IMG/VR virus record: IMGVR_UViG_3300022666_000336
Span: 1-39,515 of that record
Origin: a virus
Taxonomy: Duplodnaviria; Caudoviricetes
Length of the DNA stretch: 39,515 nt
Direction: 5' to 3' (one strand)
Shown piece after piece: positions 1,400 through 38,836 of the stretch (position 1 is the first letter of the stretch; the number at the start of each line of letters is the position of its first letter). The notes under the pieces were generated by a model, which saw only the letters and a list, made by a program, of their open reading frames with translations, was not told the origin of the DNA and made no database searches. The position numbers were made by a program, and so were the translations under genes.

Positions 1400-2296
1400 C
1401 TATTGCCGTATCCAAATGCGAAATCTGCTGTTTACATCTATGCCGCCCGTCTGATTTGCACTAAAAAGCAACGACAGCAAATTTTTAGGGCTTCCGTCCA
1501 GAACGGTATTCATCATGTGGGAGAAAAGCGACAGCTGTGAAACAACATTGCCCGATGTAAACCGCTGCCCTATCCCTACTATTCGGGGATACCCTTCAGG
1601 CGTAAGAAGTATGCTGCCTGTTAAGTTCAAACTTTCACCGATTCCGATAGGACCGGGAGCCGCTCCTGCATAGAGAAAGGCGTCATTCTGAACAGATGTT
1701 CCCTGCCAGTTTGAACTGTATTTTGACGTCGTGGTGTCCCCGTTATAAAACAGCCTGAATGTAGTGTCTCCCGCATATCCATTCTTCAGGAGAAATTCAA
1801 AGTTGTATCCCTTGTCGGTATTGATATCCAGAATGTCCTCGGTCGGCAACGTCGTAACCGCAGAATCAACGGTATGATCAAATATCGGATCCAATGCCAC
1901 TTTGGCAAGAAAACCGGAATCTATCTTTCCCCCTGGCCCTGCAACCGGAATGATCCCGGCGCCCGGAGTTACAGAGGAAGCATGACCGTTTAGCGTATCC
2001 GCGTCTATTGCGTCCGCTGTGGTAAGAATGTTTGCAAGAACAGCCACCAGTGCGCTAAAATTATGACCGGTTGTTCCCGCTGATCCATCCTCTACGACAA
2101 ACCCCTTTGCCGCGAGGGACTGGGCAATCGCCGCGACCATTGCAGAAACCTGATATGCAAACTTATTGTGCAATTCAGGCTCGTAAACTCCATCTATTGC
2201 GCCTCCGCTTCGCATGGTATCTGCCTCATATGCAGCATCACTTTGAATGTTTGCCAGTGCGGGATTCCATTGTTTGAAATTAGTTGATCCAGCCAT
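1400..2296 (-). CDS. Tail fibre protein
   Basis: Follows the baseplate wedge gene; N-terminal baseplate-attachment-like region; DADTLNG fibre motif; beta-rich C-terminal domain. Confidence 0.8.
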   Translation of the reverse strand: MAGSTNFKQWNPALANIQSDAAYEADTMRSGGAIDGVYEPELHNKFAYQVSAMVAAIAQSLAAKGFVVEDGSAGTTGHNFSALVAVLANILTTADAIDADTLNGHASSVTPGAGIIPVAGPGGKIDSGFLAKVALDPIFDHTVDSAVTTLPTEDILDINTDKGYNFEFLLKNGYAGDTTFRLFYNGDTTTSKYSSNWQGTSVQNDAFLYAGAAPGPIGIGESLNLTGSILLTPEGYPRIVGIGQRFTSGNVVSQLSLFSHMMNTVLDGSPKNLLSLLFSANQTGGIDVNSRFRIWIRQ

Positions 2297-2311: not shown

Positions 2312-2941
2312 TCATGCCCAGTGTCCGGACCCAAATCCGGCAACGTATTCATCATTAATTCCGAAACCGAAATACGGCATCGGCGAGAACGTGTAATTGT
2401 AAAGAACGCCTTGCGGCCGCGGCAGAATGTATCCATTGGTTATCAAATCAATCATAATCGATGAAAATTCTCCGCTCATTATCATGGTTGCGGTCATGTT
2501 CTGACCGTCATTCACAGCAAGCTTTCCAGTGGGGAATATCTTTTTCCAAAGCGTTTGCAGATTCCCGACGGTACCGTCCCAGAAGTTGTGGCATATTTTT
2601 GCTTTGAGCAAGGTTCGATATGTCCAGTCATCGAGCAACGGGCTGAATCCGCTCGGTTCAAAATCCACATTCCGGGCCTGTCCAACGATTTCCCCGATGG
2701 TGTCCAGTTGCTCTCCGGCTGCGTTGTCAATGTCGAAATACTCGTACATGTTGTCTATCAGGGCCGTCGCATCTGAAAGACGGTTTAAAATAACTTCCAG
2801 CATCGCAAGAAACTTCGGCGAATTCTGGTATTGCGACGTTATCAACCCAAGATAGTAGCTGACCGGTATTGCCGATGCCCCGGCATAAACAGAATCATTT
2901 CCGTAGTCGCTGCCGTATTCGCTTCCGTATCCGTCTGCCAT
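2312..2941 (-). CDS. Baseplate wedge protein (DUF2612-like)
   Basis: LITSQY, FDIDNAAGEQLDTIGEIVG, YRTLLKAKI, LPRPQGV motifs; synteny after baseplate J. Confidence 0.85.
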   Translation of the reverse strand: MADGYGSEYGSDYGNDSVYAGASAIPVSYYLGLITSQYQNSPKFLAMLEVILNRLSDATALIDNMYEYFDIDNAAGEQLDTIGEIVGQARNVDFEPSGFSPLLDDWTYRTLLKAKICHNFWDGTVGNLQTLWKKIFPTGKLAVNDGQNMTATMIMSGEFSSIMIDLITNGYILPRPQGVLYNYTFSPMPYFGFGINDEYVAGFGSGHWA

Positions 2942-2944
2942 GGG

Positions 2945-3901
2945 TTATTTCCTCTTCCACATTCTGAAGCGTGATCCCACGTCAATTCCGCTTGCTGATG
3001 ATCCTGTAACATCGACTCTGGTCAAATTATTCCCGGACACCTCTGTAACCTTCCAGTGAGATACTGTATATGTTTCTGTTCCAACTCCGGATGAGTTGAT
3101 GCCAACGGTTCTGGACAGTGTGCGCACAAATCCTCCTGGAGTCTGAATAATGGACCCGACAATAATCAATTGCCCGCCAGCTGCAACATTTGTCTGGTGC
3201 ATAATGGCGTCATTCGACTCGCCTGATGTAAAATTTCGGCGATAATCCGTTGCGGTTGTGTTGTTGTTATAATAGAGAGAATAAAGCACATTCCCGGCTG
3301 TGGGGTTCTTGATTATGAATTCAAAGTCATATCCGCCATCAGTCGCCGCATCGAGTGTTACTGTTCCGTTGGTGGTTGCCGTGGTTATGGCTGATCCACT
3401 GACGGTGTAATCATAGATAGGAATTCCCGTCGATGAGTAAAACCCGGCTGCTATTTTTCCATCGCTGCCGGCCACAGGAATAATATTTGCTCCCGGAGTA
3501 GCTGAAGCAGTTCTATTATTTCCGTCAGCAACCACATAGGAAGCAGTGCCGGCAGACGCAATATAATTTGTCCACGCAAGGCCAGCGGCCGCGGTGCTGT
3601 CAGACTTCAAAGCGTATCCATCAGTGCCGACAGCAAATCTGGCAAAGGTTGTTGAATTCCTGGTGAGCAGGTCGCCTTTCGTTGTCAGGATGTCGAATGT
3701 TGCGGAATTCGAAGTGATGCTGTTGCTCATCCTGCTGATGACCGTATCCAGATTGTCCCAGTTGTTTACGTTTACCGTATTCGCCCAGTTATTCTCCCCT
3801 GCCGTGGGCTTGTACATGTGTAAATTGGTAGTGTACGTTCCCGCAGACAGAATTCCGCAGAACGAGAAGAGCGCTGCTATTGTCAGTAATATCCGTTTCA
3901 T
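2945..3901 (-). CDS. Second tail fibre-like protein with N-terminal signal peptide
   Basis: MKRILLTIAALFSFCGILSA leader, then TYTTNLHMYKP...W...NWDNLD fibre-anchor-like motif and TTKGDLL segment; C-terminal domain paralogous to 1400..2296; GGAGG RBS at 3906-3910. Confidence 0.75.
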   Translation of the reverse strand: MKRILLTIAALFSFCGILSAGTYTTNLHMYKPTAGENNWANTVNVNNWDNLDTVISRMSNSITSNSATFDILTTKGDLLTRNSTTFARFAVGTDGYALKSDSTAAAGLAWTNYIASAGTASYVVADGNNRTASATPGANIIPVAGSDGKIAAGFYSSTGIPIYDYTVSGSAITTATTNGTVTLDAATDGGYDFEFIIKNPTAGNVLYSLYYNNNTTATDYRRNFTSGESNDAIMHQTNVAAGGQLIIVGSIIQTPGGFVRTLSRTVGINSSGVGTETYTVSHWKVTEVSGNNLTRVDVTGSSASGIDVGSRFRMWKRK

Positions 3902-3910
3902 TATTCCTCC

Positions 3911-5089
3911 TTACGTCACATTGATTGTTATATTTGCTCCGAGTCCATGAATAACGTGGTTGAACAAAACCGTTATATCAGCGGTTCCCTGAGATCCAGA
4001 GCTGGTGCCTGCCACAACGCTGGTGACCTCGAAAATTGGCGATTTCAGATCAGGCATGACAGACAGGATCGGGGCATACAGCACGGACGGAGAGAACCCC
4101 TTTCCTATTTCAAAGCTGTTTAAAAAGTCCACAATGGCGGCTAATATGGCCGTTGTGTAAGCCGAGGTATATCCGGACAGAGCTTTTATTCCGATGGTCG
4201 CGTAAATAGGGTCGTACGTCGTACGATAGAATCGGATGGATGAAGTTATCCCGGAATCAGGATCCGCCACGCTCACCACTTGATCGCCGTTGGTATAACA
4301 CCCGATTCCCCGGTTGGTATAGATCGCATTCGCCACATTTGCATCGGTTCCGCCCTCCACCACACACGTTATGGAATGGGCGGGGAGGTTGTTGCTGTCC
4401 AGGCTTCCGGTCGGGTTTTCATAAATACGGTATCGGGTAACTCCCGCGACATCCGCGATGGCTCCTATGGTTCCTCCGAGCATCGTCTTTGAGGCTATTT
4501 GAGTGCTGACCGCCTGCCGGGCCCTGAGCTGCGCATCTGTTTCAACCGCCTGACCGAGTGTTGCAGCGGCCGCGTTTGTTACGCTGGTCCATCCGGCCTG
4601 TGGGGTAAGTATTTTATTGACTTCCCCGGCGAGCGCCGAGATAGCGCCGATGGTCTGACACGTTGCCACCACGTCAATGGTTCCGGAAACTCCTATGGTA
4701 ACTGAAGGAGGCAAAGACCACTTGACAGAGTTGGCATCGCCCACTACTCCGTTTAAAATTACTGTACCCGCAGTCCCGGATATGGTCACCGTGCAGGTAG
4801 AATACGAGGCAGATTTCTTTGCAAGACCGTTCAGCTTGACCAGAGATTCCAGCGCTGCGCCGATTGCCGTCTGTGGATTTCGGTTGTTATAGGCTAGTTG
4901 AAGAGAGTTCATGCAATCGAATATTTTTAACGCAATGACAGAAAGAAACTGGTAGTCAGCAGAGTCCTCATCAAGATAAATGTCTTGACCATAGATCGTT
5001 TTTGCCTGCGCTATGAGGTCGTCCAGAATGTCCTGATATGAAGGAATTATCAGTCCGGTTGTATTTACCAAAGGGGCCGCATAAGTCAT
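3911..5089 (-). CDS. Baseplate J/gp47-like protein
   Basis: NPQTAIGAALE, ETDAQLRARQ, LPAHSITCVVEGG motifs. Confidence 0.92.
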   Translation of the reverse strand: MTYAAPLVNTTGLIIPSYQDILDDLIAQAKTIYGQDIYLDEDSADYQFLSVIALKIFDCMNSLQLAYNNRNPQTAIGAALESLVKLNGLAKKSASYSTCTVTISGTAGTVILNGVVGDANSVKWSLPPSVTIGVSGTIDVVATCQTIGAISALAGEVNKILTPQAGWTSVTNAAAATLGQAVETDAQLRARQAVSTQIASKTMLGGTIGAIADVAGVTRYRIYENPTGSLDSNNLPAHSITCVVEGGTDANVANAIYTNRGIGCYTNGDQVVSVADPDSGITSSIRFYRTTYDPIYATIGIKALSGYTSAYTTAILAAIVDFLNSFEIGKGFSPSVLYAPILSVMPDLKSPIFEVTSVVAGTSSGSQGTADITVLFNHVIHGLGANITINVT

Positions 5090-9699: not shown

Positions 9700-10088
9700 G
9701 ACGTGATATTGAACAGCAACGCGTGAATGGTAAGAGCAAGAACCGTCATGACATCATTGTCCAGATCAGAAACGCCAAACTTCCCGTCTGCCATCATGAC
9801 ATTGACCGGAAGCTCCTGCCCGCCAGCAGATTGCAGCTCCTTGCATACCGAGAGGCAATCTTTCTGGAAAGCAATAAACTCTGCCTTGCTCATGCTGGAT
9901 GACATGAGCCCCGCCTGCATGGCCGCTGCCTGTTCCTCCGGTTTCGCGTTCTGCAGCTGCATGAGAGACGGCAGCATCTTGGTCATGACCTGGTACGCAA
10001 TAAAGGAGCCGGTCAGAGCGTCGAATTTCTCAATCCTCCACCGCCGTTCTGCCAGCTCCACGATTTTGAATGTTTCCCGTTTACTCAT
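9624..10088 (-). CDS. Tail assembly chaperone
   Basis: Between tube and tape measure; slippery heptamer near 3' end; likely start MSKRETF at 10088. Confidence 0.78.
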   Translation of the reverse strand: MSKRETFKIVELAERRWRIEKFDALTGSFIAYQVMTKMLPSLMQLQNAKPEEQAAAMQAGLMSSSMSKAEFIAFQKDCLSVCKELQSAGGQELPVNVMMADGKFGVSDLDNDVMTVLALTIHALLFNITSFFEENALKSAMGSFQALSLFNAKT

Positions 10089-10296
10089 TTCTTTTCCCTT
10101 CTTTTTCAGTCCATCTGCATATCCCATCGGTATATTTCAGACATATTTTATTTTCATACCGAGCTCCAACAGATAATTCATTGCAGAGTGGTTTCGGTTT
10201 AGGCGGATCAATAATTTCCGCAACATCTGAAATCGTTTGTAACACCGCACAGGCCGGAAATACGATTAGGCATAAAGTTAAAATAATTCGCTTCAT
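10081..10296 (-). CDS. Small putative lipoprotein
   Basis: MKRIILTLCLIVFPA-C leader; three further Cys; inserted between tube and chaperone. Confidence 0.55.
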   Translation of the reverse strand: MKRIILTLCLIVFPACAVLQTISDVAEIIDPPKPKPLCNELSVGARYENKICLKYTDGICRWTEKEGKRNE

Positions 10297-12718: not shown

Positions 12719-13196
12719 CGCGCACTACATAGATAATGGATTTTCTAAGCTGGCCGGTATCAATAAGCGGACGGTCAGAACCCTTTTGCTTAACTGTATT
12801 AGCTTTATTCGGGGCCCAGCCGTTCCGGGGATCCTCGAACCAGTCACGCGCCGCGTTCTGGCCGGCCATCCCCGCCCGTTTTAAATATTTCGTCGCTTCG
12901 TCTTCTTTATGATCGAGCGTTGACCGGGCTGCTGTTTTAAGCTCTCCGGTTATGCGCTCCTTGTTTCCTGATGCCTCAATGGCGGGCTCAATAACTGGCC
13001 TCGCCGGAATCCCGCGCAATGCGCTTCCGTGCGTATGGATATACATGAGCTGCGCGTTTGTTACTGCGTCACCCCTGCGCCCCGACTTGTTCTCAGGAAT
13101 GCCGACATAAACCTGCATCTTGGTAATCTGCAAGAGCTTGTTGGCAAGGTCTTTCATTCCGTCATCGCCGTTATCTTTTATCCCGACTTTGATCAT
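12702..13196 (-). CDS. Neck/tail completion protein
   Basis: VYVGIP, HTHGS..IPARP, KGSDRPLIDTGQLRKSI motifs; likely start MIKVG at 13196 (ATGA overlap). Confidence 0.8.
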   Translation of the reverse strand: MIKVGIKDNGDDGMKDLANKLLQITKMQVYVGIPENKSGRRGDAVTNAQLMYIHTHGSALRGIPARPVIEPAIEASGNKERITGELKTAARSTLDHKEDEATKYLKRAGMAGQNAARDWFEDPRNGWAPNKANTVKQKGSDRPLIDTGQLRKSIIYVVRGESGE

Positions 13197-13510
13197 GATG
13201 CGTATTTCACCCGTTTGACCGTGTATTCGGTGCTCCCCCAGCCTTCTTTCCCTGTGCCATAAGTCCAATGCAATGTAACGGTTCTTATTTCTTCAAGCTT
13301 GGTTGTGCTGATCATGGCATTTTGGTCGGCTGTAATATTTATGGAAGGCGGAGTAAAGGCGGTCAGTGGAACAATGCTCTGACCGCTCTCATCGTCTATT
13401 CGGTATTCGGCAGAAGTAGGAACGACAGCATCGCCGTTTTCATCGGTAAACGATGCTGTTATCAGATAAAATGTTTTTTCATTCACTGAACCTACGTTCT
13501 GAATTTCCAT
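13193..13510 (-). CDS. Small Ig-like virion accessory protein
   Basis: Beta-strand pattern, FTDENGDAVVP motif; last gene of the neck insert. Confidence 0.5.
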   Translation of the reverse strand: MEIQNVGSVNEKTFYLITASFTDENGDAVVPTSAEYRIDDESGQSIVPLTAFTPPSINITADQNAMISTTKLEEIRTVTLHWTYGTGKEGWGSTEYTVKRVKYAS

Positions 13511-13512
13511 GA

Positions 13513-14037
13513 TCAGCTCCAGGTGATGGAAAGGTCGAGGGTCCAGGTCTGGCCGCTGGTCTTGGTGCCCTGTGCCGAAACCTTTCGGTTTAGATTTTTT
13601 CCACTGCCGCTGCTGGCATTCGCCACGGTGAATTCATTCCAAGCGAAGTTTGCCTCTGCTCCGGTGAATACGGCTCTCCAGGTTATGGTTTGGTTTGAAA
13701 TAGATGGATACGTGGTCGACATGGCTTTGTAGAGCTTGTTTGTTGCCGCTTGCAGGTCTGTCTGCGTAGCCGCTTCTGCGGTGTTTGAGTCGCCTACTCC
13801 CAGATAAGAGTTTGCGTTAGAAAAAGCCGTTGCCGTTCCGCCCGTGAGCAGAAGCAAGAATTCTCCGATACCTTCATTCAGAAGAATATTATCTTTAATG
13901 TGAGACACGGAATACGGGTTGTTATCCTCGAATGCTTGATCGTTCTCATATTTTTTAATTGTCCATTGCGAATCATGGATGATGATGTCGTTCACCAATC
14001 CTGCTTTTTTCAAGTGTTTTAATAAGTTTCTGATCAT
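13513..14037 (-). CDS. Virion accessory (collar/fibre-anchor-like) protein
   Basis: YLGVGDSNTAEAATQTDL and FTGAEANFAWNEF resemble tail-collar fibre N-terminal domains. Confidence 0.6.
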   Translation of the reverse strand: MIRNLLKHLKKAGLVNDIIIHDSQWTIKKYENDQAFEDNNPYSVSHIKDNILLNEGIGEFLLLLTGGTATAFSNANSYLGVGDSNTAEAATQTDLQAATNKLYKAMSTTYPSISNQTITWRAVFTGAEANFAWNEFTVANASSGSGKNLNRKVSAQGTKTSGQTWTLDLSITWS

Positions 14038-15146
14038 GAGAGTCCTCCTCTAAAGGTTATTTTTCCAGTTTTTCCGGAGATTGTTATATTAGCCTGTTTA
14101 CCGCCAAAGCCCATTGATGGTCTTTTCCCTGTAAATGTGATTGTTATTGTTTTTGCTTCTTCTCCGATAATGCGAAATAAAATTTCTTGTCCAGACGCCA
14201 AGTCGGAAACTTGAGCTATTACCGAGAGCGCGGTTAATAAATCAATTCCATTTCCCGAATCGTTTATTGCAAGGCTTACCGAAACAGGGCCAATGCTTTC
14301 TGATGCTGCAGCCGAGTCCGCCACAACTTTAAAAACTTCTATGAGCCTCGAAATATCATCAGCGCCATTTCCTACATCAGAAAGCGAAATGCTGACCGAT
14401 ATGGACGGTGCATCTGTTCCCTGTCCTGAATCTGTTGCAGTCACATTCGCCGATATGCCGATAGAGTCACTTGCCGATCCCGAATCATAAATGCTCATCA
14501 AAATATCTTTTAAAACAGTGAGCGCATCTGAAGCGGTGGCGGTGTCAATTAGAGATAAACTCACTGACACTGCTATTGCATCGTCTCCTTGTGCCGTCTC
14601 TACAGCATAAACATTGACTGATATTCCAACTGCATCATTTGCCGCCGCTGCATCATCTATGGCAATCAGTATTGCCTGAACAATGGAAAGAGCGTCAGAC
14701 CCAGATCCCACATCAGAAATAATGAACGTTGCCGAAATTGAATTATTATCAGCGCCGCTACCGGAATCCTCTATTGATACCTGCGCTCCTATGTCGATGC
14801 TGTCTGTAGCAGAACCTGAATCGCCCAAAGGCAACTGTGCAATAATCTGATAAATTGAATCAACGCCAGCACCAGAATCATTCAACCCGAGTTGAGCAAG
14901 AAGTTGGGCGATTGCGTCTGTTCCTGATCCAGCATCTGTAAGTTCCAGTCCAGCACCCATCCCGAATGAGTCAGCACCCTGCCCTGTTTCTGAAATTGCA
15001 AGCCCCACCGCGATTACAAGATCGTCAGAGCTCGCACCTGTGTCTGTAATGGTAATAGTAGTATCTCCACCGGTCACAGCCTTTGATGCCCACGGCAAGG
15101 ACCGGCGTCTCCTTCTGTACGGCGTATTTCGCAGAAAGATTGGCAT
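14034..15146 (-). CDS. Acidic repeat-rich fibre-like protein
   Basis: About 16 degenerate 18-20 aa repeats with core (I/L)xD(S/T)GxGxD; Arg-rich N-terminus. Confidence 0.65.
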   Translation of the reverse strand: MPIFLRNTPYRRRRRSLPWASKAVTGGDTTITITDTGASSDDLVIAVGLAISETGQGADSFGMGAGLELTDAGSGTDAIAQLLAQLGLNDSGAGVDSIYQIIAQLPLGDSGSATDSIDIGAQVSIEDSGSGADNNSISATFIISDVGSGSDALSIVQAILIAIDDAAAANDAVGISVNVYAVETAQGDDAIAVSVSLSLIDTATASDALTVLKDILMSIYDSGSASDSIGISANVTATDSGQGTDAPSISVSISLSDVGNGADDISRLIEVFKVVADSAAASESIGPVSVSLAINDSGNGIDLLTALSVIAQVSDLASGQEILFRIIGEEAKTITITFTGKRPSMGFGGKQANITISGKTGKITFRGGLS

Positions 15147-15631
15147 TATTCCTCTTCAATAATGAACGTGAATTGCCCGGTAAAATCATCCCCCGGAGTT
15201 GTCTGCATCCGTACCGCCAGAGCCTCGCCGTTCTTTGCCTTCGGGCAGAACCGGTCATCGGGAAACCAGAAATCAAAGGGAGAATTTCTGATGTTCCAGC
15301 CAAGCTCCGCGAGTGTTACCGATGTTCCTGATGTTGTGGCAACTGTCGTATTGCCACACTCGCATGCTGCTCCGGCTGCAGCGTCCGCGCTATCCATCGG
15401 AGCAGGGGTAACTGCTGACCCTCCGGATCCGCTCGTTACCGTCGCCGGAAGTCGTATAACACTTATTCGGAGTCCCTCTTCTTGCGCGTCAGATACCTCG
15501 GAAATCTGGCTAAGCACCATTCCGCGCAGCTTTACCGGCTTGTTGCTTGCAGGAGATATTTCGAGCAGGTCAGAGTCTCCGACTGCGGCTGTAATCGTGC
15601 CTTGATACGATACCGTGTATATTCTGCCCAT
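15146..15631 (-). CDS. Virion accessory beta-sandwich protein
   Basis: Likely start MGRIYTV at 15631 (TAATG overlap, GGAGG RBS); TSGSGGSAVTPAP motif. Confidence 0.6.
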   Translation of the reverse strand: MGRIYTVSYQGTITAAVGDSDLLEISPASNKPVKLRGMVLSQISEVSDAQEEGLRISVIRLPATVTSGSGGSAVTPAPMDSADAAAGAACECGNTTVATTSGTSVTLAELGWNIRNSPFDFWFPDDRFCPKAKNGEALAVRMQTTPGDDFTGQFTFIIEEE

Positions 15632-17079
15632 TAAAAAGCCCTCCTCATAAATTGTCTCCGCCTCCGCTGCGGCGCCATTGATAGCTCTGGACCGATGATA
15701 TTTACTGTTTCCAGCGCCTCTCCGGACCATGCAGCAATGGCATCAATCGCCCCGAACGTCGCACCATGAAAAATATTCAGTGCGTTATAAACAGTTCCTT
15801 CCCACACCTGGATTGCTGCTGCTGCAAACGCCCCTGAACAGATACCGACGAATGCTCCTCCCGTGTTGATGAAATTCAAAATATTGCTGATTCCTGTTGC
15901 ATCGAGAGATGATCCGACAGCCAAGCCTCCCGGCATGAACAAACCGCTGTATGATGTCGGAGAAATTGAATTTGCATTGATCCATGCCTCGGCTGCTTCT
16001 GTGTACGATATTCCCATCGCCGTCAGTACGGCCTCAAAACCGGACACACTCGGCGCCCAGGCAAGGCCCGAGGTATTATCAATCAGGAACGGAAGATTGC
16101 TCTGCCGCGCCCAGTTAATTGAACGCTTTAAAAAATCCTTCGTAGTGTCGGTGGTCGTCAGGCCTGAGTCGCTGTCCACCTCGACATGCACCCCGAACAG
16201 CGCCACCCGTCCCTGGCCATATGGAAACTTAATCGCTGCCGGCTGCTGGGTCGTGTTGTAGTACGCGATAATGGAAACCGGCTGATCTTCTGCCGGAACG
16301 AAATACGGACCGCCGTAATAGATATAATTCCGCGTCCATTTTGCGGCCGGGTTCGCTACCTCGCGAATGCGGATGAATATTCCCGGCCCGCGCACGTTCG
16401 TCGTCGTTCCGCCAGCCGTCGCGGTGAGTGTCGGGACCCCTGTGCTTATTCCGGCACTGATAGGAGCACGCACAATAAAACCTCCTATATCGTTGCCGAC
16501 ACTACTGTCCGGTTCTCCCACTTCGGTTACAGTTCCGAAGGTAATCCCACCCTGCGATAGGGATTCTGCGGAAAATTGCGACGGAGTTGTCACGTCGGTC
16601 GGGATGCACATAGCGGCGATGATAAAATCGTTTACCTCGACTCCGGGATCAGAATCAAATGCCAGGGAAACGCTTCCTGCAGACGTATCCTCGCCCGTTG
16701 TTCCCTTGATGTCCCAAACCGTTGTGGTATTCGTCAACCGGAACATGATTGCCCAGGCAATGTCACTTGCAGCCAGGGCTACCGATAAAGATCCGGTTTC
16801 GTTGCCGAGCGCAATTTTTCTGAATGCGAATATATTGCAGTTTCCAGTATCGGCTCCCAGCGTTGTAGAATACCCGCCCGCGCCTATGCGCTGGGTTATC
16901 AGTGCCCATCCTGCCGGAGTTGTCACCGAACCGCTGTTCGCGGCTGACGGCTTCATGCCTATTACCAGAATAAGCGCCTCGCCCGTGATAATACTCGCCG
17001 GATAGGCAACTGATATTGACGTTGCACCGGTAGAGGCTGAGTATGCGAGTGATCCCGGTGTTTGATAGGTAATGGACAC
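15631..17079 (-). CDS. Virion accessory protein: beta-rich N-domain fused to a permuted BPL_N/class I glutamine amidotransferase-like domain
   Basis: YYGGPYF, YGQGRVALFGVHVE, LFMPGG and FINTGGAFVGICSGAF motifs. Confidence 0.7.
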   Translation of the reverse strand: MSITYQTPGSLAYSASTGATSISVAYPASIITGEALILVIGMKPSAANSGSVTTPAGWALITQRIGAGGYSTTLGADTGNCNIFAFRKIALGNETGSLSVALAASDIAWAIMFRLTNTTTVWDIKGTTGEDTSAGSVSLAFDSDPGVEVNDFIIAAMCIPTDVTTPSQFSAESLSQGGITFGTVTEVGEPDSSVGNDIGGFIVRAPISAGISTGVPTLTATAGGTTTNVRGPGIFIRIREVANPAAKWTRNYIYYGGPYFVPAEDQPVSIIAYYNTTQQPAAIKFPYGQGRVALFGVHVEVDSDSGLTTTDTTKDFLKRSINWARQSNLPFLIDNTSGLAWAPSVSGFEAVLTAMGISYTEAAEAWINANSISPTSYSGLFMPGGLAVGSSLDATGISNILNFINTGGAFVGICSGAFAAAAIQVWEGTVYNALNIFHGATFGAIDAIAAWSGEALETVNIIGPELSMAPQRRRRQFMRRAF

Positions 17080-21056: not shown

Positions 21057-21518
21057 TTATTGCTTGACGTAGGTAATAATTCCATTCGCTGCCGTAGTCC
21101 CCGCAGACATCACTGCGCAGATATCTCCAGCGGAAACGCTTTTTACCACCGTTCCGCCATAACCCAGATTCACCCATGTTCCGGTAAGCGGTTTCATGAC
21201 TCCGGTCAGGCTCGTTACTCCCGTTGCGCAAAGCGTCCCGGTGCCGGTTACCAGCGTAAAATCAGGAGTTGTCCCGGACAGCACAGCGCTCACACTGCAA
21301 ACGTAAATTGATTTTGCCGCGGTTAATCCGACAAGACTCGTGGTCCCGGTTGCCGCCGATATCACCGCGCTGGACTTCGCCACGCTCGGGTTTGCGCACG
21401 GATCCGCGCTGACGGGATAGAGCACATATGTGTCAGACGGTCCTGCCGTCGCCATTGCGCCAACAACCAACAACATCACAACCAACAAAAAAACACTTAA
21501 ACCTTTTAACAGTTCCAT
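21057..21518 (-). CDS. Signal-peptide-bearing beta-rich protein in the head cluster
   Basis: MELLKGLSVFLLVVMLLVVGAMA leader; Thr/Gly/Ser-rich body with 4 Cys; GGAGG RBS. Confidence 0.65.
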   Translation of the reverse strand: MELLKGLSVFLLVVMLLVVGAMATAGPSDTYVLYPVSADPCANPSVAKSSAVISAATGTTSLVGLTAAKSIYVCSVSAVLSGTTPDFTLVTGTGTLCATGVTSLTGVMKPLTGTWVNLGYGGTVVKSVSAGDICAVMSAGTTAANGIITYVKQ

Positions 21519-28695: not shown

Positions 28696-29121
28696 TTAAA
28701 CCAGTTTTACTCCACGCGGCGGCGGATCCGTGCCGTACACCGATCGGTATGCGTCTTTGTATACGGACCACTCGAATCCAAAACCATCTTTAATCATTCT
28801 CGCCATGAGCGATATTTGATCTGCCTTGCCGTAATAATTTGCGTTTTTGATTTTGTATTTCTTTGCGAATTTATGAAACGTGTCCCATTGAAACTGACAG
28901 ATGCCGTATGAGTTGTAATTATCTCCATAAACGCCCTTATGCCGTCCACTAGACTCTCGGTGTATTATTTCCTTAATCAGTTTCTGAAATTTCAATTCTT
29001 TCTGGTGTCGCGCGTCCGATTCTACCTGACGTATAATTGTTTGCGACGCGTTTGAAGCGCAGTTAATAAATATGATGGTAGAGATAAGCAAAGCGGTAGT
29101 AATTAGGATGTGTCGCCTCAT
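28696..29121 (-). CDS. Exported lysozyme-like/lytic transglycosylase protein
   Basis: Hydrophobic N-terminus; IIHRESSG and YGICQF..TF motifs. Confidence 0.7.
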   Translation of the reverse strand: MRRHILITTALLISTIIFINCASNASQTIIRQVESDARHQKELKFQKLIKEIIHRESSGRHKGVYGDNYNSYGICQFQWDTFHKFAKKYKIKNANYYGKADQISLMARMIKDGFGFEWSVYKDAYRSVYGTDPPPRGVKLV

Positions 29122-31626: not shown

Positions 31627-32340
31627 ATGAACAATAAATTGCACATTTTTGCGGTATTTTTTGCATTTTTTATGATCAGCCCTCTATTTGCTGATGATCG
31701 TCCTAGCTATATGATTCAGTATGAAGGCTGCAATGTTGAATGTTTAAAACTTCCCGACCCGTCTGCCAATTTTAACAAAACATTTAAGCTGGACGAAGAG
31801 GCAATGAAAAATAGAAAAATCTGCTTTGATAAGTGTTCTGCTGAAAAAGATGCGGCCCTTACTAGAATAAGAATCGCGGAAGAAGAACGAAAAGAAAAAC
31901 TTGCCCAGGAGCAGAAGGCATTGCAGGAAAAAGCCGCACAAGAAGCCGCCATTGAAGATGCAAAAAAAGAGCGGCAGAAAGAAGAGCATCTGCTCAAGAT
32001 TATCGGCAAGAAAACCCTTCAGGAATGTAAGCAAAAAATATACTATTTTGAGAACCTATTGGTAATGAATCCCTATGATGCTGCGGGTAAATGTTTTCTT
32101 CTCCAAACGTCTCCCATGGCGCACATGCAGATTCTTAGCAGGACAACCGGATTAATTCTCTATCCGGATCAATCGGTATATGTCGATTTTGGAAAGCAAT
32201 CAGTACCGGCAAAAAACGACATGAGGACCTTTGTTGTCAAGGGCGATCAGAAACCTTTTAAATATAAATCCACCGCAGGCGCTCTTACCACAGCGGTGAA
32301 AGTGCGCGCACTGAAAGACATAACTGAAGAATATGAATGA
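31627..32340 (+). CDS. Secreted protein of the immunity region
   Basis: Signal peptide ending PLFA-DD; coiled-coil middle; six Cys; AAGGAG RBS; AT-rich. Confidence 0.7.
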   Translation: MNNKLHIFAVFFAFFMISPLFADDRPSYMIQYEGCNVECLKLPDPSANFNKTFKLDEEAMKNRKICFDKCSAEKDAALTRIRIAEEERKEKLAQEQKALQEKAAQEAAIEDAKKERQKEEHLLKIIGKKTLQECKQKIYYFENLLVMNPYDAAGKCFLLQTSPMAHMQILSRTTGLILYPDQSVYVDFGKQSVPAKNDMRTFVVKGDQKPFKYKSTAGALTTAVKVRALKDITEEYE

Positions 32341-33803: not shown

Positions 33804-34053
33804 GGGTGATTTCAACTTTCGGGGCCAAACGTTAGGAGTAATGGCCACGGTTGAATATCAGGCAGACAAGTACGGAATTATTGAATACCTCGACATCACA
33901 AAACTGCTTATTCACTCCGACCGCCGAGACCATGACGTTGAGGCCAGTGCACGATTCATCAGAAAATTTCAAGAAGAGAAATGGAATTACCTTGAAGGCA
34001 AATGTCAGGACAACGAAAAATATCTTGAAGAACTCTACCGAGGTGCGGCATGA
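33778..34053 (+). CDS. Hypothetical protein
   Basis: 91 aa ORF coupled to neighbours. Confidence 0.6.
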   Translation: MSEKTMEIEGDFNFRGQTLGVMATVEYQADKYGIIEYLDITKLLIHSDRRDHDVEASARFIRKFQEEKWNYLEGKCQDNEKYLEELYRGAA

Positions 34054-34535
34054 GAAAACTTATCCTTGCTCTATTGTTCCTTGCAGCTTGCGGGAATGAA
34101 AACAGCGGAGAGGGTGTAAATCAATGGGTAAACAGTTCCCCTGTCATTCAGGCAATCACGGCTTCCAACGATTTATACCTTGGTGCAGAAGCATGGCTGT
34201 ACCCTCCCTATCACGGCGTTGCGGAGTTACGAAGCAGAGAAATACAGCTTCCCCCGAATCAGTCAGTAGGGCTTATCGCAACGGTATCTATGACAACAAA
34301 GGGTTGCCCGAATGATACCACGTATAGTGAGGTTATGGCGCAGATAGAGATTGATGGTATGAGATACTTCCCGATAATCGTGAAAACCAAAGAGCAAGGG
34401 AGTGTGAATACATTTGTTACTTTCATGCCTCCGGCGAATTACGGAGATGGAAAAATGACTTTTATAATTGCCGGGGACGGATGCAATCTGGACTGGGAAA
34501 TACAGGGAAGGCTCATTATAGAGCCGCAGTCATAA
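34050..34535 (+). CDS. Putative lipoprotein
   Basis: MRKLILALLFLAA-C lipobox; beta-rich body. Confidence 0.7.
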   Translation: MRKLILALLFLAACGNENSGEGVNQWVNSSPVIQAITASNDLYLGAEAWLYPPYHGVAELRSREIQLPPNQSVGLIATVSMTTKGCPNDTTYSEVMAQIEIDGMRYFPIIVKTKEQGSVNTFVTFMPPANYGDGKMTFIIAGDGCNLDWEIQGRLIIEPQS

Positions 34536-37129: not shown

Positions 37130-38836
37130 ATGGAGATAGTGGTCGACAACTTTGCCGGAGGCGGCGGGGCCAGCACAGGAATTGAAAAAGCCCTCGGACG
37201 ACCGATTGACATTGCCATTAACCACGATCCAGAGGCTATTGCAATGCACTTGGTAAATCATCCGAACACAAAGCATCTCTGCGAATCGGTCTGGAAAGTC
37301 AACCCCATGATTGAGTGTGCCGGCAGGCCGGTTGGTCTGGCATGGTTCAGCCCGGATTGCAAGCATTTCAGCAAAGCCAAGGGAACGAAACCGGTAAGTA
37401 AAAAGATTAGGGGCCTCGCATGGGTAGTTCTTCGGTGGGCAGCTACGGTAAAACCGCGCCTGATCATGCTTGAGAATGTCGAAGAGTTCATGACCTGGGG
37501 ACCAGTAGTAACGAATGAAAACGGTAAACAGTACCCCTGTCCAAAAAGACGAGGAAGGACGTACAGAAGTTTTATAAATGCCCTGAAAAAGTACGGTTAC
37601 GATGTCGAGGTAAGGATATTACGCGCCTGTGATTATGGCGATCCAACTATCCGGAAACGTCTTTTCCTTATTGCCCGGTGCGACGGTCTCCCTATCGTAT
37701 GGCCAGAACAGACACACGGAGATCCTAAAAGCGATGCAGTACAGAGCGGAAAACTGTTGCCATGGCGCACTGCTGCTGAGTGCATTAAGTGGGAAGTATC
37801 GTGCCCGTCGATATTTGAGCGCAAGAAGCCCCTGGCAGAAGCGACACAACGCAGAATAGCCAAGGGCATCAAACGATACGTTATCGACTCCCCGGACCCG
37901 TTCATAGTCACCTATTACGGTGATAAGAGAGGAGAGTTCCGGGGCCAACCGATAACCGAACCGCTGCGGACGCAGACAACTGAAAATAGGCACAGTGTTG
38001 TAATGCCATTTCTGGCTCGCACGGATATGCATAAATCCAATGCCGGTTGTGCTTATGATGTAAATGACCCGCTTAGAACGATTACGTCAAGTGGTGGACA
38101 TGCGATCGTCACTCCTCATCTCATTCCCCTGACTCATCAGGGCAGTGACCGAGTGAATGACATCAATGAACCATTACCGACCGTGACCGCTAAGCCTCGC
38201 CATGCCCTCGTATCAGCTTTTCTCGCAAAGCATTACGGTGGTGTTGTCGGTTCTGACCTTGAAAATCCAATAGGTACCTTTACAACTAAAGATCATCATT
38301 CTCTTGTGACCGCAAATCTTATCCGGAATATGGGCGGAAGCATAGGATATGGAGCAGATGAGCCAGCAAGAACCGTAACACAACGAGACAAAGACAGTCT
38401 CGTTACCACTCATATAGTTAAGCTAAAAGGCACAAACATAGGCCAAGATGCACGGAAACCACTGCAGACAATCACTGCAGGCGGGTACCATTTCGGAGAA
38501 GTCCGGGCCTTCCTGATGAAATATTATGGAACGGATCAAGACCCGAAACTACTGGAGCCACTCCATACCGTAACAACCAAAGATCGTTTTGGACTCGTTG
38601 CTGTCCACGGTGAAGAATATCAGATAGTCGACATCGGAATGAGGATGCTTGTACCACGCGAACTGTTCAGGGCGCAGGGATTCCCAGACAGCTATATTAT
38701 CGACCACGACATAAACGGCAAGCCATTTACGAAAACGGCACAGGTGAGAATGTGCGGAAATTCTGTTTGCCCGGGACTTGCTTCCGCTTTAGTAAAGGCA
38801 AATATGGTAACAGAAAAAGCTTTTGTATTGAATTAA
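37130..38836 (+). CDS. Orphan C5 DNA cytosine methyltransferase
   Basis: Motif I FAGGGG, IV SPDC, VI ENV, VIII RKRLF, IX RELFRAQGFP, X GNSV. Confidence 0.95.
   Translation: MEIVVDNFAGGGGASTGIEKALGRPIDIAINHDPEAIAMHLVNHPNTKHLCESVWKVNPMIECAGRPVGLAWFSPDCKHFSKAKGTKPVSKKIRGLAWVVLRWAATVKPRLIMLENVEEFMTWGPVVTNENGKQYPCPKRRGRTYRSFINALKKYGYDVEVRILRACDYGDPTIRKRLFLIARCDGLPIVWPEQTHGDPKSDAVQSGKLLPWRTAAECIKWEVSCPSIFERKKPLAEATQRRIAKGIKRYVIDSPDPFIVTYYGDKRGEFRGQPITEPLRTQTTENRHSVVMPFLARTDMHKSNAGCAYDVNDPLRTITSSGGHAIVTPHLIPLTHQGSDRVNDINEPLPTVTAKPRHALVSAFLAKHYGGVVGSDLENPIGTFTTKDHHSLVTANLIRNMGGSIGYGADEPARTVTQRDKDSLVTTHIVKLKGTNIGQDARKPLQTITAGGYHFGEVRAFLMKYYGTDQDPKLLEPLHTVTTKDRFGLVAVHGEEYQIVDIGMRMLVPRELFRAQGFPDSYIIDHDINGKPFTKTAQVRMCGNSVCPGLASALVKANMVTEKAFVLN

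What the first reader, a model, noticed from the sequence alone, without database searches (positions are those of the whole stretch)
2945..3901. Tail fibre paralogue with a Sec-type signal peptide
Seen: a well-supported start (GGAGG RBS) gives MKR + hydrophobic core + ILSA-G, immediately followed by TYTTNLHMYKP..GE..W....N.NNWDNLD and a C-terminal domain shared with the canonical fibre. Known: tailed-phage virions assemble in the cytoplasm and fibres normally lack signal peptides. Inference: cleavage would expose the anchor-like motif as the new N-terminus. The fibre may fold in the periplasm and be added to virions at lysis, or act as an exported receptor-blocking decoy.
Basis: partly seen in the sequence, partly recalled or inferred. 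Interest (0 to 1): 0.8.

Follow-up and report, generated by a model that had tools for sequence, protein, structure and literature searches.

The report
Exported phage fibre with baseplate dock
A prophage places a second tail-fibre gene with a predicted bacterial export signal between two baseplate genes, and the neighbouring baseplate protein carries an extra peptide that likely docks it, so this fibre is likely made outside the cytoplasm and would join the virus particle only when the cell bursts.

Summary
Observation confirmed (minus strand, 318 aa). Residues 1-20 look like a Sec/SPase I leader. A close relative keeps them with only synonymous changes, and distant relatives keep an unrelated leader with the same cut site. 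The motif behind the leader is a fibre N-terminal module. It was never internal in 40 viral matches: 26 start with it and 14 carry a leader whose predicted cut gives the same N-terminal register. It travels with a triple aromatic-glycine peptide on leaderless virion proteins (35 of 52 loci; host background 0.011 per 6 kb). Here that peptide is an N-terminal extension of the adjacent DUF2612 wedge, whose solved homologues carry two fibre docks. Best reading (0.58): an exported auxiliary fibre that plugs into the wedge at lysis; a decoy is less likely. Disulfides and N-glycosylation do not explain the export (no mature Cys; no DsbB or STT3 found in the host). Export, cleavage and docking are all inferred. 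The scan has noted signal-bearing phage fibres on many other genomes; the register test, the candidate docking peptide and the cysteine-free case are what this locus adds.

The parts
3906..3910 (-). Shine-Dalgarno GGAGG, 4 nt before the ATG, next to the J stop codon
2945..3901 (-). auxiliary tail-fibre gene (P0001, 318 aa)
3842..3901 (-). predicted Sec/SPase I leader, residues 1-20, cut A20|G21
3737..3841 (-). N-terminal anchor-type module (hairpin then helices; TTxLxxxKPxxGExxW...N.D.LD), residues 21 to about 55, helix running on to residue 69
3566..3697 (-). one TTKGDL-type beta repeat (fibre shaft module), residues 69-112
   Evidence: Vibrio long tail fibre distal subunit, Microbacterium minor tail proteins
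2948..3424 (-). C-terminal beta-sandwich head (lectin/C1q-like arrangement), shared with the canonical fibre and replaced in relatives
2312..2941 (-). DUF2612 baseplate wedge (XM1 gp17 / Pam3 gp23 homologue), no leader
2900..2932 (-). N-terminal triple aromatic-glycine peptide of the wedge (GYG..YG..YG), candidate dock for P0001
   Evidence: docking inferred
2318..2377 (-). C-terminal aromatic-glycine segment of the wedge, likely dock of the canonical fibre
   Evidence: by analogy to XM1 gp17 residues 201-242
1400..2296 (-). canonical leaderless tail fibre in the slot after the wedge
3911..5089 (-). baseplate J wedge subunit

Best explanation
P0001 is a second tail-fibre-type protein of a contractile-tailed prophage that is likely exported by Sec and predicted to be cut after Ala20, and that would plug, likely as a trimer, onto the extra aromatic-glycine peptide of the DUF2612 wedge when lysis mixes periplasm and cytoplasm. 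Shown: gene position between J and the wedge; domain order; conservation of the leader as a property; N-terminal-only placement of the anchor module; co-occurrence of module and peptide. Inferred: export, cleavage, trimer, binding to the peptide, timing at lysis, receptor binding by the head. The selective reason is open. It is not disulfide formation or N-glycosylation here; my best guess is folding or ion loading of the sugar-binding head outside the cytoplasm, or keeping it away from cytoplasmic sensors and from tail assembly until late.
For: Leader: 5 substitutions in 60 nt in a relative (runs X2 and X3, one study), all at third codon positions, with the protein unchanged (P0002); 27 substitutions but 1 amino-acid change over residues 1-136. 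P0047 has a different leader with an AxA site before the same G-x-Y-T-T. Motif scan of IMG/VR: 14 of 40 with leader, 26 of 40 leaderless, 0 of 40 internal. Predicted cuts leave 3-4 residues before TT, against 2-4 after Met removal in 25 of 26 leaderless cases. In 80 wedge loci, all 22 anchors found are N-terminal: 10 with leader, 12 without. L224 has the window's gene order with a leaderless anchor gene; L034 and L206 have it with a leader. Peptide: present in 35 of 52 anchor loci, 0 of 52 on the opposite strand; host background 0.011 per 6 kb. Wedge loci: both 14, peptide only 4, anchor only 7, neither 55; after clustering at 70% identity 8/1/3/34. In the 8 of 14 leader-bearing loci with a peptide, its carrier has no leader (by eye). 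Wedge homologues XM1 gp17 and Pam3 gp23 each have two fibre docks; the window's wedge lacks the internal loop and has the N-terminal peptide instead. The host has BamA and two SPase I genes. The head is replaced while the N-terminal half is kept, as in receptor-binding fibres.
Against: No direct evidence of export, processing or presence in virions; SignalP was not run. 17 of 52 anchor loci show no peptide within the fetched flanks, including 6 of 14 with a leader, and 5 wedge loci (L215, L225, L227, L235, L237) have a leader-bearing anchor with no such peptide within 3 kb. Kin are not independent: at 60% identity the positive wedge loci collapse to 3 clusters, so co-occurrence may partly be shared descent. 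No solved structure contains the anchor. No Cys pairs, sequon excess, DsbB or STT3 give a reason to export. Capture of a periplasmic protein by particles during lysis has no cultured precedent in my searches.
Confidence: 0.58

Rival explanations
1. Exported decoy or envelope protein: the protein is secreted but never joins the virion; its head blocks the phage receptor or alters the envelope of the infected cell or lysogen.
For: A real-looking leader; the head is 39% identical to the head of the phage's own canonical fibre, so it could bind the same receptor; 9 of 40 proteins with this head have leader-like N-termini, and most of those lack the anchor (by eye).
Against: The gene is tightly coupled inside the late tail operon (9 nt after J, 3 nt before the wedge). 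The anchor is under strong purifying selection and is kept while heads are swapped. The wedge carries the peptide that accompanies leaderless anchors elsewhere. A decoy would not need an anchor.
Confidence: 0.17
2. The leader is real but export is leaky or delayed: part of the protein stays cytoplasmic or membrane-tethered (signal-anchor-like) and is fitted to tails in the ordinary way, the leader serving as a timing or dosage device.
For: Leaderless versions fill the same slot (L224) and leaders were gained or lost several times (6 changes on a poorly resolved tree, at least 2 forced), so export is not essential to the module; no maturation chemistry requires the periplasm.
Against: The cut site is kept in register in all 14 leader-bearing viral cases, and SPase I cleaves on the outer face of the membrane (established knowledge). 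There is no SD-led internal start before the motif.
Confidence: 0.13
3. Exported adaptor with a non-virion role in lysis or release, for example tethering progeny tails to the envelope or to outer-membrane vesicles through the wedge peptide.
For: It uses the same anchor-peptide pair and the same export evidence; a chromosomal RHS/FN3 locus (L204) uses leader + anchor + peptide outside a phage tail.
Against: After the predicted cut the protein has no membrane anchor or lipobox; its shaft and head are ordinary fibre modules.
Confidence: 0.08
4. The hydrophobic N-terminus is a chance or vestigial extension.
For: Most relatives of the motif lack it (26 of 40).
Against: 0.9% false rate of the rule at internal Met positions; synonymous-only divergence; 9 of 23 anchor clusters at 60% identity carry such leaders.
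Confidence: 0.04

Closest known systems
Vibrio phage XM1 gp17/gp18 (PDB 7kh1; PMC10457771, passages read) and cyanophage Pam3 gp23/gp24 (PDB 7yfz; PMC9942802, passages read)
   Same: Homologous wedge (E 2.5e-10 and 1.4e-6) with two fibre/spike docking regions per subunit; the Pam3 fibre has an N-terminal helical attachment domain and a TNF-like sandwich.
   Different: There one fibre type fills both docks, and no export signal is mentioned in the passages read. Here the internal loop is missing, an N-terminal peptide is present and two different fibres exist, one with a leader. Pam3 uses disulfides; mature P0001 has no Cys.
Pseudomonas phage E217 gp45 fibre-attachment loop with gp46 (PMC10329688, passages read)
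   Same: A wedge loop fits into the trimeric helical N-terminus of the fibre, the geometry proposed here.
   Different: No sequence match between the E217 proteins and P0001 or the wedge was found; single fibre.
JBD30 hub gp53 / receptor-binding protein gp54 (PMC11445458, passages read) and Chi-like Klebsiella phage Soft gp58/gp57 (DUF2793)
   Same: In JBD30 the hub C-terminus docks into the centre of the fibre's helical bundle. The homologous Soft hub (E 8.7e-57 to 8rk3) ends in a triple YG peptide right before a fibre with a similar-looking N-terminus.
   Different: Siphophage hub, not myophage wedge; the anchor likeness is weak (HHalign probability 19%, E 0.0012); leaderless; P0001 has no DUF2793 domain.
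Tunturiibacter phage Tunturi_4 gp112-gp114 (PP885687; PMC11924767, passages read)
   Same: Cultured tailed phage with the same anchor module (45.7 bits), followed by two tail-annotated proteins with leader-like N-termini.
   Different: Its anchor protein is leaderless and the leader-bearing neighbours are Cys-rich (10 and 20 Cys); the paper's main text does not mention signal peptides.
Filamentous phage pIII/pVIII (recalled, not from a call)
   Same: Sec leader removed by SPase I to give a virion protein.
   Different: Those are membrane-embedded subunits of a secreted, non-lytic virion; this is a soluble part of a lytic tailed particle.

Membership tests
Tailed-phage tail fibre / receptor-binding protein | encoded in the baseplate-fibre module | tested here: met
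   between J and DUF2612 wedge; same slot in L034, L206, L224
Tailed-phage tail fibre / receptor-binding protein | N-terminal attachment module, shaft, exchangeable C-terminal head | tested here: met
Tailed-phage tail fibre / receptor-binding protein | homotrimer | not tested
   only monomer models were obtained
Tailed-phage tail fibre / receptor-binding protein | present on the virion and binds a host receptor | not testable with these tools
   needs virion proteomics or cryo-EM
Tailed-phage tail fibre / receptor-binding protein | made and attached in the cytoplasm without a leader (textbook trait, recalled) | tested here: not met
   leader predicted and conserved; hence filed as a variant that works like a fibre, not as a canonical member
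Sec/SPase I substrate | basic n-region, hydrophobic h-region, small residues at -3/-1 | tested here: met
   own rule; same site in homologues
Sec/SPase I substrate | host has an outer membrane and SPase I | tested here: met
Sec/SPase I substrate | export and cleavage in vivo | not testable with these tools
   experiment needed
Lipoprotein (SPase II substrate) | lipobox ending in Cys | tested here: not met
   Cys15 follows F-S-F and is not conserved in homologous leaders
DUF2793 (PF10983) fibres | Pfam domain match | tested here: not met
   no Pfam hit for P0001 at E<=0.1; only weak likeness of the N-terminal anchors
Disulfide- or glycan-dependent exported fibres (earlier scan notes) | paired cysteines or excess sequons, with host Dsb/OST | tested here: not met
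   0 Cys in mature P0001, P0002, P0047; N-sequons 8 observed vs 6.15 shuffled; no STT3 or DsbB match in the 97.7% complete host. O-glycosylation motifs were not tested.
C1q/TNF/BclA or ConA-like lectin fold | structural match above background | tested here: inconclusive
   best VIA Z 7.5 (rmsd 3.6, 124 aligned), C1q/BclA rows Z 5.8-5.9; no PDB Foldseek hit at E<=0.001

The most novel reading that the evidence does not exclude
Many tailed phages use a portable plug-and-socket pair, an N-terminal anchor module and a triple aromatic-glycine peptide on a core virion protein, and have repeatedly added Sec leaders to the plug. Part of the particle is then built in the periplasm and snapped on at lysis, even with no disulfides or N-glycans to gain: a second, extracytoplasmic assembly line for tailed phages with a defined docking code.
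Probability: 0.5. Interest if true: 0.88.

Novelty: new variant of a known kind. Interest (0 to 1): 0.68.

Why it matters
Tailed virions are held to be finished in the cytoplasm before lysis. A fibre that must cross the inner membrane and can meet the tail only at lysis would add an assembly step outside the cytoplasm. It would also change how phage genes with signal peptides are annotated. This locus makes the idea testable in a small way: a 35-residue anchor, an 11-residue candidate socket, natural pairs with and without leader in the same gene slot (window and L034 versus L224), and a cultured phage (Tunturi_4) with the same anchor next to leader-bearing tail proteins. It also argues that disulfide folding is not the only reason for export. 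A transferable anchor-peptide pair would be a simple way to display proteins on phage tails.

Tried and rejected
Complex prediction of three copies of residues 21-115 with wedge residues 1-36 gave no verdict (score 0.03, mark 0.34, folded without alignments); not used as evidence either way. Reverse DNA scan for GYG..YG..YGN in IMG/VR was swamped by unrelated low-complexity GYG proteins: 0 of 120 loci had an anchor, and 40 of them held only about 300-base flanks; uninformative. No Pfam or PHROG family for whole P0001; no PDB sequence hit for P0001, the canonical fibre or the anchor profile; fold searches of the N-terminal model gave only generic helices (best Z 4.1). The search for related loci with P0001, with alignment A1 and an exact-motif scan of metagenome contigs found nothing. 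No RNA holder listed. Ten of 22 genome contigs motif matches were unrelated proteins with an internal chance match and were dropped by eye. The first anchor profile missed the TPNIGLQ variant (4 of 80 loci); it was iterated, with opposite-strand scores staying under 4 bits. For the clustered table I added three wedges with two-repeat variants (L206, L223, L234) to the peptide class and removed L222 and L279 as unrelated matches. N-glycosylation, disulfides and lipoprotein anchoring were rejected as reasons for the leader. A start at Met29 was rejected (no SD, truncates the motif). Literature: five searches for signal peptides on tailed-phage fibres or post-lysis assembly (listings only) showed no paper describing this; the library lacks most subscription journals, and no supplements were read.

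Full report
Setting. The window is the late and early region of a prophage with a contractile tail: terminase, portal, protease, capsid, sheath, hub, J and DUF2612 wedge, then lysis-type genes, with host genes beyond. The host genome is 97.7% complete, has BamA, two SPase I genes and dsrA; its name was not determined. The finding's ORF is on the minus strand, 9 nt after J and 3 nt before the wedge; the usual leaderless fibre follows the wedge.

Observation. P0001 has four parts: leader 1-20, anchor-type module 21 to about 55 running into a helix (AlphaFold pLDDT 83), one TTKGDL repeat also found in cultured phage fibres, and a beta-sandwich head (pLDDT 91). The head has 103 viral structural matches at E<=0.001 and only generic lectin/C1q-type PDB neighbours (Z<=7.5).

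Is the leader real? SignalP was not available. My rule calls it, with a 0.9% false rate at internal Met positions (73 of 7977). A related phage in runs X2 and X3 (one study) differs at 27 sites over codons 1-136, including 5 in the leader, all at third positions. P0002, which I take to be its protein from the matching 1441-base contig length, differs there by one residue, while its head is replaced over the same length. P0047 has an unrelated leader ending in ALA before a nearly identical anchor and another head. A degenerate scan of IMG/VR for the anchor gave 40 matches: 14 with a leader, 26 starting at the motif, none internal. Predicted cuts leave 3-4 residues before the TT, as in P0001; 25 of 26 leaderless forms have 2-4 after Met removal. 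Of 22 genome matches, 12 were leaderless anchors and 10 unrelated proteins that I dropped. At 60% identity, 9 of 23 anchor clusters have leaders and none is mixed. A poorly resolved tree needs 6 gains or losses, at least 2 forced. So the module must sit at the N-terminus, and is freed either by Met removal or, by inference, by SPase I.

Does it join the virion? The wedge here starts with an extension holding GYG..YG..YG, as does the wedge of L034, which has the same gene order; three related wedges without the inserted gene lack it. A triple aromatic-glycine peptide lies in a same-strand frame in 35 of 52 anchor loci and 0 of 52 opposite strands, against 0.011 per 6 kb in the host genome. It is usually at an end of the neighbouring gene, and in the 8 of 14 leader-bearing loci where it was found its carrier is leaderless. 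As an independent set I took the best 80 of 570 wedge loci: peptide and anchor 14, peptide only 4 (three cut by contig ends), anchor only 7, neither 55. After clustering at 70% and hand adjustment of five loci the table is 8/1/3/34; at 60% the positives collapse to 3 clusters, so shared descent contributes. All 22 anchors there are N-terminal, 10 with and 12 without leader; L224 has the window's order without a leader, L206 with one. The wedge is homologous to XM1 gp17 and Pam3 gp23, each described with two fibre docks (PMC10457771 and PMC9942802, passages). The internal dock loop is missing here, which fits a C-terminal dock for the usual fibre and the N-terminal peptide for P0001. E217 (PMC10329688) and JBD30 (PMC11445458) show a linear segment of a core protein inserted into a trimeric helical fibre N-terminus; the JBD30-hub homologue of Klebsiella phage Soft ends in a triple YG peptide before its fibre, though anchor likeness is weak. 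Against: 17 of 52 anchor loci and 5 leader-bearing wedge loci show no peptide in the fetched flanks, and no solved structure holds the anchor.

Why export? Mature P0001, P0002 and P0047 have no Cys. Leader-bearing anchors have no more Cys (37 in 7641 residues) than leaderless ones (60 in 13462) and no sequon excess (134 observed, 127 expected). The host shows no STT3 or DsbB. The reason is therefore open; ion-dependent folding of the head, or separation from the cytoplasm until lysis, are guesses.

Verdict. Most likely an exported, processed auxiliary fibre that docks on the wedge peptide at lysis (0.58). Decoy 0.17, leaky or tethered cytoplasmic use 0.13, release adaptor 0.08, chance 0.04. 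It works like a tail fibre but fails the cytoplasmic-assembly trait, so I file it as a new variant. Five literature searches (listings only) showed no description of this route; a sixth paper checked by passages (bioRxiv 10.64898/2026.03.17.712343) mentions signal peptides only for pilin. Earlier notes of this scan report signal-bearing fibres on many genomes (478 findings hold the search words), mostly with paired cysteines; they are unchecked and are not counted as support. Three further word searches and one sequence search of those notes found nothing on this anchor, the docking peptide or the DUF2612 context. The cultured phage Tunturi_4 carries the same anchor, leaderless, before two leader-bearing Cys-rich tail proteins and is the nearest experimental handle; its paper's main text does not mention signal peptides.

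Noticed in passing
window 21057-21518 (-): 153-aa ORF with a long hydrophobic N-terminus and 4 Cys between the head-morphogenesis and protease genes; no PHROG or Pfam hit; my leader rule did not flag it (no net positive n-region). Possibly a second exported late protein.
   Followed up: partly
window 10081-10296 (-): 71-aa lipoprotein-like ORF (basic start, hydrophobic core, early Cys; 5 Cys) between the tube and tail-chaperone genes; no family hit.
   Followed up: partly
window 13193-17079 (-): Block of five ORFs inserted between head-completion and neck genes, including a 370-aa S/D/G-rich repeat protein and a 482-aa two-domain protein; probably collar or whisker parts, mostly without family hits.
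   Followed up: no
window 31627-32340 (+), 34050-34535 (+), 28696-29121 (-): Three early-region ORFs with exported- or lipoprotein-type N-termini and no PHROG hit; candidate envelope morons.
   Followed up: no
window 37130-38836 (+): 568-aa protein that reads like a DNA cytosine methyltransferase with an internal repeat insert (from the sequence; not searched).
   Followed up: no
L204:1342-2067 (G198, same phylum): Leader + anchor + collar-like protein in an RHS/YD-repeat locus, directly after an FN3-repeat protein that ends in an aromatic-glycine triple: the pair seems to be reused outside phage tails.
   Followed up: partly
L034:2-679 (-): In this close relative the gene in the canonical fibre slot after the wedge also has a leader, so both fibres may be exported.
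   Followed up: no
L209, L210, L214, L216, L217, L219, L221, L226, L240, L242: Leaderless anchor adaptors after the fibre, about 130 aa where printed, followed in those printed by a leader-bearing Cys-rich protein: a possible two-piece version of the system.
   Followed up: partly
L004:11771-12985 (G056): A different, non-contractile-type prophage in a same-genus genome uses the same head domain (55-57% identity) on a leaderless fibre: heads are exchanged between unrelated phages of this host genus.
   Followed up: partly
L083-L202: A large class of small low-complexity GYG/GNG/GDG-repeat proteins in viral contigs (about 550 stretches estimated), unrelated to the anchor.
   Followed up: no
L287:6995-11119 (Tunturi_4): Cultured siphovirus with leaderless anchor gp112 and leader-bearing gp113 and gp114.
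   Followed up: partly
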